Assembly: GCA_026770705.1 (NCBI GenBank)
Contig: JANJGN010000039.1
Location: 8,680,001 to 8,744,000 of the forward strand
Source: Isurus oxyrinchus
Lineage: Eukaryota
Direction: 5' to 3'
DNA: 64,000 nucleotides
Shown here: positions 38,014 through 39,914 of the stretch, piece after piece
Position numbering within the stretch: position 1 is the stretch's first letter
Layout: each line of letters begins with the position of its first letter
Notes under the pieces: model-generated
Told to the model about the DNA's origin: nothing
The model's input: the letters and a program-made list of their open reading frames with translations, nothing else
Database searches by the model: none
Position numbers and translations under genes: made by a program

Positions 38014-38797
38014 CTGAAGGGGTATCATGGCATGCAGAAAATGGAGGAGTGCCTACGTGTGTGAGGAGGCGATTCAAATGCATCCACTAATAGGCAATGC
38101 TCCTTGGTGAACCTTAGTCCATGAGACTGCTCAGACTTGAATTGATGCGGCCAATTATCAGGAGCACGTGTCCTGTTTTGCGGGCATGTAGAGTCCGTTG
38201 GATGATATGCAAGGGGAATGGAAGGGGACAAAGGGAATTCTGCCAGTCCAGTGAGCATTATGGAAATGAGTCAAATAACGGTTTGTGGCGAATCAACCTG
38301 ACTGCTTACTCTCTGCAGTCCATGCAAAACGAACAGTAAGTAAAACGGATAATGAGACACAATGTCCCCAGTTGACGACATCAAATACATTTGGAGATGT
38401 CGACTGGGTTGCAACTAATTTATATTTAAAAAATTAAATTTATATCAGCGAGCGTGTCTTCAAGGTACTAGGGCTATGAAACGTTCATTAGTTGTGACTT
38501 GAGTATTATGTGCATTTCTGGTAACCTCTTTACAGAAAAGATGCAATTCCATTAGACATGGTACAGAGGAAATATAACGAGGATATTTCCAGACCTGGAC
38601 AATTGCAACAATGAAGAAAGACTGGATAGGCTGGAGTCGTTCTTCTTGCAAGAGAGGAGGCTGAGGGGAGATTACATTGAAATATACAGAATTGTGAGCA
38701 GCCTGGATCGAATGGATGTGACGGACCTATTTACTTCAACCAGTGACTAGGGGAATTGGGTTTAACGGGGTTGTTAGGAATTTTAGAGCAGAGAGTG

Positions 38798-39332
38798 TGT
38801 TGGGGAAGAAATTAAGTAAGACTTTATGGTAAGGGAAAATTTATTGAAAAGGAATTAATTACTTTAAATCTCCAGGCAGCCAGTGCTATCATGTATATTA
38901 ACACTTAAAGATTACCAGATGAACTTTGTTCAGGCTTAGGGCCTGTTACCAACAGAAAGGCCTCAGGAGCCACACTGGAGTCAGAGGATGGCTAAGACAT
39001 AGAGTAATTGTGCTCTTCAACAGATAGGGGAAGGACGGATGGTCCTAGTTCAGGTAGGACGGAAGGTCTCTGCCTGGGTAAAAATAGGGACATGCGATGA
39101 ATGTACCTGTTACCAGAGATGCCTGTTTAATGTAAACGGATATAGTGACGAGATGGGAATCTGGAAACTGTTCTTGTACGTGACCAATAATGTATAGATA
39201 TGTTGAACGCTTGTAATTTAGCAGAGTGTGATCTCAAGCTGTATTGAGATGACTCTCCCCTTGCAATTGCTGGAATAAACGTTCGTGACCTGTACCTGAG
39301 GCCCCTGTGGTCGGGTTGTCAAAGTGACAACA
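38798..39332 (+). mobile_element. LTR of an ERV or LTR retrotransposon (535 bp)
   Basis: TGTTG...CAACA terminal inverted repeat, AATAAA near 39275, a tRNA-complementary primer-binding site 3 nt downstream, and interruption of a CR1 fragment. Confidence 0.75.
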
Positions 39333-39335
39333 GAT

Positions 39336-39390
39336 TGGAATAGTCGGTAGGATTCGAACCATGTGGGGAAACCCCGCTTTGGATTTCAAG
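39336..39390 (-). tRNA. Partial, degenerate tRNA-Ser(UGA) copy (3' two-thirds including CCA); extended primer-binding site, not a functional gene
   Basis: The minus strand reads CTTGAAATCCA..GGGGTTTCCCC..GGTTCGAATCCTACCGACTA..CCA, matching the anticodon loop, long variable arm, T loop and acceptor strand of vertebrate tRNA-Ser. The D arm and 5' end are absent. Confidence 0.75.
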
Positions 39391-39914
39391 AAAAACCGCG
39401 GGTACTTGGAGTCAGGAACTCGCTGGGCAAAAGGGTAGCAGAGGCAGAGACCCTCAACTGACTGATTGAGTCACATATAGAAACTTCCAATGCAACATGC
39501 TGTTCTGACTTGATTGGAATATTTAATAGTGCGTGAAAATTGTTGGGTCTCAATGCATTTAAGTTCAATTGTCCTTGCTGTAATCACTATTACGAAATTG
39601 CTAATCATCGAGGACCATATTGACTTTTCAATTCTCATTCTTTCTTCCAATTACCCACAGCCCCATGATTCTCCAAGTTATCAGCGCTGGTCACAATCAG
39701 GTCTTTTGTGCTTTCCCGAGCAGAATTGCCCCAACTGTCATGACAGTACCTTTAGTTAGTTACCTATGCCTCAAGCTCCGGTATTTACCTCCATTGCCTC
39801 TCTAACTCGCTCCCCTCCTTCAAGGCACTGCTTGAACATTACTCCTTTCACCAAGTTGTTGTGCATCTTAACCATTTATCGTTAGCTTGTTGGTTAATCG
39901 TGAGGTTTAGTGTC

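What the first reader, a model, noticed from the sequence alone, without database searches (positions are those of the whole stretch)
38798..39390. LTR plus 55 nt of reverse-transcribed tRNA-Ser: a possible fossil plus-strand strong-stop DNA
Seen: a complete LTR, a 3-nt spacer, then TGG (complement of CCA) and tRNA-Ser complementarity running through the T arm, variable arm and anticodon loop, ending at about C32. The host CR1 then resumes. There is no internal retroelement sequence, second LTR or evident TSD. Established: a PBS is normally about 18 nt because plus-strand synthesis stops at m1A58; CCA is added post-transcriptionally; tRNA-Ser carries the RT-blocking m3C32. Inference: an aberrant intermediate that read through m1A58, stalled near m3C32 and was captured without normal integrase action.
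Basis: partly seen in the sequence, partly recalled or inferred. Interest (0 to 1): 0.72.

Follow-up and report, generated by a model that had tools for sequence, protein, structure and literature searches.

The report
Retroviral LTR with over-copied primer tRNA
A dead endogenous retrovirus end is followed by a 55-base reverse copy of its primer tRNA instead of the usual 18 bases, and three more such ends occur in the same genome, so a copying error known from test tubes likely reached the germline several times.

Summary
Observation confirmed. LTR 38798-39332, a 3-nt spacer, TGG, then antisense tRNA-Ser to position 34-32 (39390). The tail is far beyond chance and there is no TSD. The family's normal PBS is 18 nt: 207 normal junctions against 7 extended ones.

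The window copy is one old event. It has five paralogues and is also in a second species label. Three further independent events exist. C21 and C5 join the tRNA tail to an inverted LTR and have 5-bp TSD-like repeats at two U3 ends; C19 is a rearranged provirus. Read-through past m1A58 is therefore well supported (about 0.9).

The U3 end starts exactly at TG, which favours one-ended integrase insertion over integrase-free capture. Missing internal sequence says little, because 14 of 22 insertions are solo LTRs. A stall at m3C32 is unproven: a 2-nt microhomology blurs the end, and the four tails end at four places.

This is a replication-error fossil with no function. The scan noted a similar tRNA-Pro case in another genome (e1-7808317). 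I found no paper on genomic fossils of this kind.

The parts
38497..38797 (+). Host LINE fragment left of the insertion (CR1-type, label recalled)
   Evidence: 75-82% to other genomic copies, 2322 candidates; register
38798..39332 (+). Complete LTR (TG...CA) of an ERV-like family; U3 end starts exactly at TG
   Evidence: 85-87% to the best non-paralogous copies, 1935 candidates; ends compared
39333..39335 (+). 3-nt spacer at the family's LTR-PBS distance (unprocessed U5 end)
39336..39353 (+). 18 nt equivalent to the normal tRNA-Ser PBS (TGG plus complement of tRNA 73-59)
39354..39388 (+). Over-extension: complement of tRNA-Ser positions 58 to 34 (T arm, variable arm, anticodon), best fit to TGA/AGA-type genes
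   Evidence: 29 of 38 columns to L088 including the next 2 nt; random control maximum score 11 against 35
39389..39390 (+). 2-nt microhomology shared by tRNA positions 33-32 and the host LINE
39391..39460 (+). Host LINE resumes in register; no TSD; deletion of about 10 nt after about 39395

Best explanation
The LTR is followed by a 53-55-base reverse copy of its primer tRNA-Ser, likely made when reverse transcriptase failed to stop at m1A58, and this DNA was likely inserted one-ended: integrase at the intact U3 end, host repair at the tRNA-tailed end through a 2-base microhomology. Shown: the sequence anatomy, the 18-nt norm, the missing TSD, and four independent tails in the family. Inferred: an RNA template, one-ended integration, and repair by microhomology joining. 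Left open: whether the substrate was LTR-only strong-stop DNA or a full-length cDNA that later collapsed to a solo LTR, and whether the tail ended at m3C32. It has no evident function.
For: Tail far beyond chance. 207 normal junctions against 7 extended hits, which are 3 events; a fourth event came. The four tails end at different tRNA positions and fit different gene types (C21 fits CGA-type genes best), so they are independent. In C21 and C5 the tail lies inside an insertion with U3 at both outer ends and 5-bp repeats (C21 3 of 5, with a 5-nt gain confirmed by register; C5 4 of 5), so the tail existed before integration. The window's left end is at TG without the 2 post-PPT bases. Papers, read as passages: over-extended HIV-1 plus-strand products ending in the anticodon loop exist as minor dead-end species (PMC13191261). 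Proviruses with an intact 5' junction and PBS pieces plus microhomology at the 3' junction occur in cells (PMC2797772). One-ended insertion reaches up to 30% of the normal rate, whereas DNA is almost never inserted when integrase is fully blocked (PMC5041404).
Against: One-ended integrations in PMC5041404 usually leave large duplications or deletions, while this site loses only 0-2 nt, which also suits blunt-break capture. An exact TG start could arise from 3' processing or trimming followed by host joining. The flanks are about 20% diverged from other LINE copies, so a decayed TSD cannot be fully excluded. No empty allele was found. The C5 repeat could not be checked by register (no hits). 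PMC8599865 states that such over-extended cDNA cannot be integrated.
Confidence: 0.6

Rival explanations
1. One reading: free over-extended plus-strand strong-stop DNA was patched into a chromosome break without integrase.
For: No TSD, 0-2 nt target loss, 2-nt microhomology and a nearby deletion of about 10 nt; no internal sequence.
Against: U3 starts exactly at TG. Solo LTRs are 14 of 22 insertions. Sister events C21 and C5 show TSD-like repeats. Integrase-free insertion is rare (PMC5041404, passage).
Confidence: 0.22
2. The copy was first an inverted LTR-tRNA-LTR insertion like C21, integrated normally through two U3 ends, and later lost its second arm and one TSD copy.
For: All 3 other events have an inverted element piece right after the tail; palindromes are deletion-prone (established knowledge); small deletion beside the junction.
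Against: The deletion would have to end within 2 nt of the original target site. No trace of a second arm in five paralogues or in bridging contigs of organism B.
Confidence: 0.1
3. A normal 5' LTR plus PBS was joined at the DNA level, through 15 nt of PBS homology, to a genomic tRNA-Ser gene during break repair and then returned to the LINE.
For: The normal PBS supplies TGG; 207 tRNA-Ser-like 21-mer sites exist in the genome.
Against: It needs two precise switches and clean loss of the whole provirus. None of four tails runs to the tRNA 5' end or gene flank. It cannot explain tails enclosed by TSD-like repeats (C21, C5).
Confidence: 0.05
4. A subfamily of this element routinely carries a long tRNA match.
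For: Four events in one family.
Against: Normal 18-nt PBS plus leader in 207 hits and in 29 of 30 inspected loci. The C5 and C19 elements carry a normal PBS at their own 5' junction. No tail is followed by the leader.
Confidence: 0.02

Closest known systems
Over-extended plus-strand strong-stop products of HIV-1 (P3-P5, ending at psi55, m5U54, ms2t6A37; PMC13191261 and PMC8599865, passages)
   Same: LTR followed by primer-tRNA complement past position 58, reaching the anticodon loop
   Different: Those are in vitro or cell-culture species held to be dead ends. Here they are fixed in a germline genome, use tRNA-Ser, and end at 34-32, 31 or 28, 45, and the 3' side of the variable loop.
One-ended (aberrant) retroviral integration: HIV-1/MLV junctions with PBS pieces and microhomology (PMC2797772, passages); ASLV/HIV one-end insertion (PMC5041404, passages)
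   Same: Normal U3 junction, unprocessed U5 end plus primer-derived bases, microhomology, abnormal or missing TSD
   Different: The HIV-1 inserts in the passages read were 2-15 nt, within the PBS; here the tail is 35-37 nt longer than a PBS.
2-LTR circle junctions with PBS/tRNA inserts (PMC5618025, passages)
   Same: Unremoved primer copied at the U5 end
   Different: Those are unintegrated circles with direct LTRs. C21 and C5 here are integrated and their LTRs are inverted.
Ordinary solo LTR of this ERV-like family
   Same: One TG...CA LTR without internal sequence
   Different: The 14 solos have 4-bp (12) or 5-bp (2) TSDs and no PBS or tRNA tail.

Membership tests
Over-extended plus-strand product of an LTR retroelement | Complete U3-R-U5 followed by the family's spacer and TGG at the PBS position | tested here: met
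Over-extended plus-strand product of an LTR retroelement | Complementarity to the family's own primer tRNA continues past position 58 | tested here: met
Over-extended plus-strand product of an LTR retroelement | Normal members have an 18-nt PBS followed by leader | tested here: met
   207 hits; 29 of 30 loci
Over-extended plus-strand product of an LTR retroelement | End lies at an RT-blocking modified base | tested here: inconclusive
   End 34-32 fits m3C32 (PMC11233606, human tRNA-Ser) but is blurred by microhomology; the other three tails end elsewhere; this host's modifications are unmeasured
Over-extended plus-strand product of an LTR retroelement | Template was RNA | not testable with these tools
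   Inferred from position and from tails enclosed by TSD-like repeats in C21 and C5
LTR-only strong-stop DNA (as opposed to a collapsed full-length copy) | No internal sequence was ever present | not testable with these tools
   Both routes give the same sequence; 14 of 22 insertions are solos
Ordinary solo LTR | 4-5 bp TSD | tested here: not met
   0-2 nt loss, no gain
Ordinary solo LTR | Host DNA directly after terminal CA | tested here: not met
   58 nt of spacer plus tRNA complement intervene
One-ended integrase product | One end joined exactly at TG/CA with the terminal extra bases removed | tested here: met
   Left end at TG in five paralogues; the 2 post-PPT bases are absent
One-ended integrase product | Other end unprocessed or rearranged, TSD abnormal | tested here: met
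Endogenous retrovirus (family of the LTR) | Retrovirus-type Pol with RT, tether plus RNase H, and DDE integrase | tested here: inconclusive
   Own integrase fragments give sub-threshold rve/MLVIN_C hits and E 2e-4 to HIV IN. Four homologues (36-46%) carry RT, two RNase H-type families and IN; the best one ranks gammaretroviral-type RT first in PDB. The family's own RT was not identified.
Lokiretrovirus | Env similar to paramyxo/pneumovirus fusion protein | tested here: inconclusive
   No PF00523 hit on broken fragments; no homologue; fragments are short

The most novel reading that the evidence does not exclude
Over-copying the primer tRNA is not always a dead end. The tRNA tail can join an LTR end of the same element through a few matching bases, giving an inverted molecule with two U3 ends that integrase inserts with a normal TSD (C21, C5). 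The tail ends and isodecoders across a genome would then record which bases of the primer tRNA were modified in an ancient germline (m3C32, variable-arm m3C, Um44, m2,2G26).
Probability: 0.3. Interest if true: 0.72.

Novelty: new variant of a known kind. Interest (0 to 1): 0.5.

Why it matters
The m1A58 stop is central to retroviral replication, and products that overrun it are described as minor and not integrable (PMC8599865, PMC13191261). Four independent germline-fixed tails in one family show that such molecules likely do reach chromosomes, by one-ended insertion or as inverted two-U3 molecules. They give a simple genome-wide signature (LTR, spacer, TGG, tRNA past base 58) for measuring how often the stop fails in natural hosts, and possibly where primer tRNAs were modified. 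The element itself is dead, and no host function is indicated.

Tried and rejected
ARAGORN on the window found no gene and Rfam gave no tRNA hit: the fragment is too short and decayed. An Rfam tRNA search of the genome gave only Lys and Cys genes in the 12 of 30 loci I scanned. tRNA-Ser genes came from a pattern search instead (26 of 30 loci called Ser). A BLAST-type search with the tail found only the four C39 copies.

A strict search for LTR plus 18-nt PBS without leader gave 2 hits: C5, and a normal element with a small leader deletion. Tails that stop at base 58 were therefore not found, but the pattern allowed no mismatch.

Of 31 hits I inspected 21: 5 extended tails (4 events), 3 tRNA pseudogene-like copies, 1 unexplained, and 12 PBS-like sites of 18-20 nt, mostly other element leaders. 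Six known tRNA genes and three paralogues were left out, and one hit had no locus.

The automatic classes mislabelled L012, L015 and L024. I corrected them by eye (6 5' LTRs, 5 3' LTRs, 14 solos; L016 dropped because its end was not found; the 11 proviral LTRs belong to 8 proviruses).

Family naming by env failed (the Atlas gave no answer). The register test of the C5 TSD gave no hits. A LINE-made tRNA retrocopy landing by chance at the PBS position was rejected. The link between tail ends and modified bases was judged by hand only: tRNA-Ser has many modified sites and three of four joints have microhomology, so it is not evidence. The position labels printed are off by one past the variable arm; I renumbered by hand. 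Three papers were not held (PMC23794, PMC1317513, PMC2224596) and may describe longer tRNA inserts.

Full report
Observation. The window holds an LTR from 38798 (TG) to 39332 (CA), 3 nt, TGG at 39336-39338 and a tRNA-like stretch to 39390. The LTR has 1935 candidates in a 4.98-Gb genome; the best non-paralogous copies are 85-87% alike. tRNA-Ser genes of the same genome were found by pattern (207 matches, 30 loci fetched, 26 called Ser). Against L088 (Ser-TGA) the stretch after TGG matches at 41 of 53 columns. The part beyond an 18-nt PBS matches at 29 of 38 columns, score 35, against a maximum of 11 in up to 20,000 random window 37-mers. A diverged paralogue (C48) and contigs of organism B read closer to the tRNA in the variable arm, so several mismatches are later decay.

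What is normal. Proviral 5' LTRs of the family carry an 18-nt tRNA-Ser PBS and then a leader. An anchored pattern finds 207 such junctions, against 7 hits when the same anchor is followed by the tRNA T arm. Of 30 junction loci inspected, 29 continue into the leader and 1 is an extended tail. Among 26 non-paralogous LTR loci there are 14 solos with 4-bp (12) or 5-bp (2) TSDs, 11 LTRs from 8 proviruses, and 1 unresolved (three automatic labels corrected by eye). The family is retrovirus-like. Its integrase fragments give weak rve/MLVIN_C hits, and four homologues are Pol proteins with RT, two RNase H-type families and integrase. Its lineage was not settled; lokiretrovirus could be neither shown nor excluded (PMC7947760, passages).

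The window copy. It is one event multiplied by segmental duplication: four copies on C39 (about 97-98% over 10 kb) and one on C48 (89%). Two raw reads of organism A cover the tail without listed differences. Contigs from three runs of organism B bridge the LTR-end/tRNA/host junction, and no joint skipping exactly the insertion was listed (contigs show presence, not absence). Intact copies of the host LINE show that the insertion sits in register with 0-2 nt lost and no 4-5 nt gain. The last 2 nt fit both tRNA and LINE, so the tail ends at tRNA position 34-32. The left end starts at TG and lacks the two bases that stand between PPT and LTR in 3' LTRs.

Three more events. C21:91066700: LTR, spacer, TGG, a tail fitting CGA-type tRNA-Ser genes to position 31 (perhaps 28), about 15 nt of unclear origin, then an inverted second LTR (509 of 568 columns identical to the first). 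The outer ends are both U3; the host repeat gains 5 nt, 3 of 5 matching. C5:123383900: LTR, a tail to the 3' side of the variable loop with A instead of T opposite base 58, a 2-3 nt microhomology, then a whole 3'-deleted element in inverted orientation with its own normal PBS. The outer ends are both U3, with a 5-bp repeat matching 4 of 5. C19:107837969: a rearranged provirus in which internal sequence is followed by 50 nt of U5, a tail to position 45, a 4-nt microhomology and the inverted U3 start and PPT. Both outer ends are U5 and there is no TSD. These searches are pattern-limited, so four events is a lower bound.

Mechanism. Shown: anatomy, 18-nt norm, independence of four tails, TSD status. 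Inferred: reverse transcriptase copied the still-attached primer past m1A58. HIV-1 makes such minor products, up to the anticodon loop, and they are called dead ends (PMC13191261, PMC8599865; passages). Tails enclosed by TSD-like repeats (C21, C5) must predate integration, which argues against DNA-level switches to tRNA genes. For the window copy I favour integrase joining the U3 end and host repair joining the tailed end (0.6). This pattern is described for HIV-1/MLV junctions with PBS pieces and microhomology (PMC2797772), and one-ended insertion is far commoner than integrase-free insertion (PMC5041404). Against it, such events usually leave larger duplications or deletions, and the near-flush site here also suits break capture (0.22). 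Loss of a second arm from a C21-like insertion is possible (0.1). Whether the substrate was LTR-only cannot be told, since solo-LTR collapse gives the same sequence.

The m3C32 stall. Human tRNA-Ser carries m3C32, m3C47d and i6A37 (PMC11233606, passages); Um44 and m2,2G26 are recalled. The window tail ends next to C32. The C21 tail passes 32 and fits genes that have T there. C19 and the window pass a variable loop without C. This pattern is coherent but rests on four cases; three joints have microhomology, and the host's modifications are unmeasured. I count it as inconclusive.

Novelty. Five searches of the held library listed no paper on genomic LTRs with primer-tRNA copies past base 58; subscription papers are missing, and three relevant ones were not held. 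PMC5618025 and PMC7472051 were read as passages; the first describes PBS inserts in circles, the second added nothing. No supplements were read. This scan has an unchecked note of the same kind in another genome (e1-7808317, tRNA-Pro, 51 nt) and notes on inverted-LTR integrants (e1-8025847, e1-7271599); I saw them after my own reading was set. Verdict: a real, recurrent replication-error fossil, a new variant of known aberrant products, without function. Interest 0.5.

Noticed in passing
G000:C21:91066120-91067360 (L061:921-2157; L110): Two LTRs tail to tail, joined by a 55-58 nt tRNA-Ser(CGA-type) copy plus about 15 nt of filler; both outer ends U3, 5-nt target gain. The filler resembles both a tRNA-Ser variable arm and a stretch of the window-type LTR; origin unresolved.
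   Followed up: yes
G000:C5 around 123383900 (L100, L145-L147): LTR plus 35-nt tRNA tail joined to an inverted, 3'-deleted whole element; A instead of T opposite tRNA base 58, which may be m1A misincorporation or the leader's own base.
   Followed up: yes
G000:C19 around 107837969 (L152, L179, L180): Rearranged provirus with U5 at both outer ends, four U5 pieces, a 41-nt tRNA tail and an inverted PPT region; no TSD.
   Followed up: partly
window 38798-39390 and G000:C39:8.83, 10.50, 10.62 Mb; C48:2.50 Mb: The region is a segmental duplication (four copies at about 97-98%, one at about 89%); contig depths suggest several copies in organism B too.
   Followed up: partly
L165:1500 region (G000:C8:93787703, minus strand): Decayed full-length tRNA-Ser copy preceded by TGG and without an LTR of this family: possibly a processed (CCA-bearing) tRNA retrocopy.
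   Followed up: no
L151 and L169 (G000:C4:104227901; C13:89815159): A related LTR family whose PBS matches tRNA-Ser for 20 nt (two bases past the usual end), like a short primer over-extension sequence.
   Followed up: no
L090-L097 (G000:C26): Dispersed tRNA-Ser(CGA)-type genes with T at position 32 and a distinct variable arm (L092 has a changed anticodon).
   Followed up: partly
L108:6355-6508; L107:7567-7754: Near-perfect 150-190 nt palindromic inserts (MITE-like) inside proviral copies.
   Followed up: no
L150 (G000:C3:22792686, minus strand): TGG plus about 22 nt of tRNA-Ser-like complement without a family LTR; unexplained.
   Followed up: no
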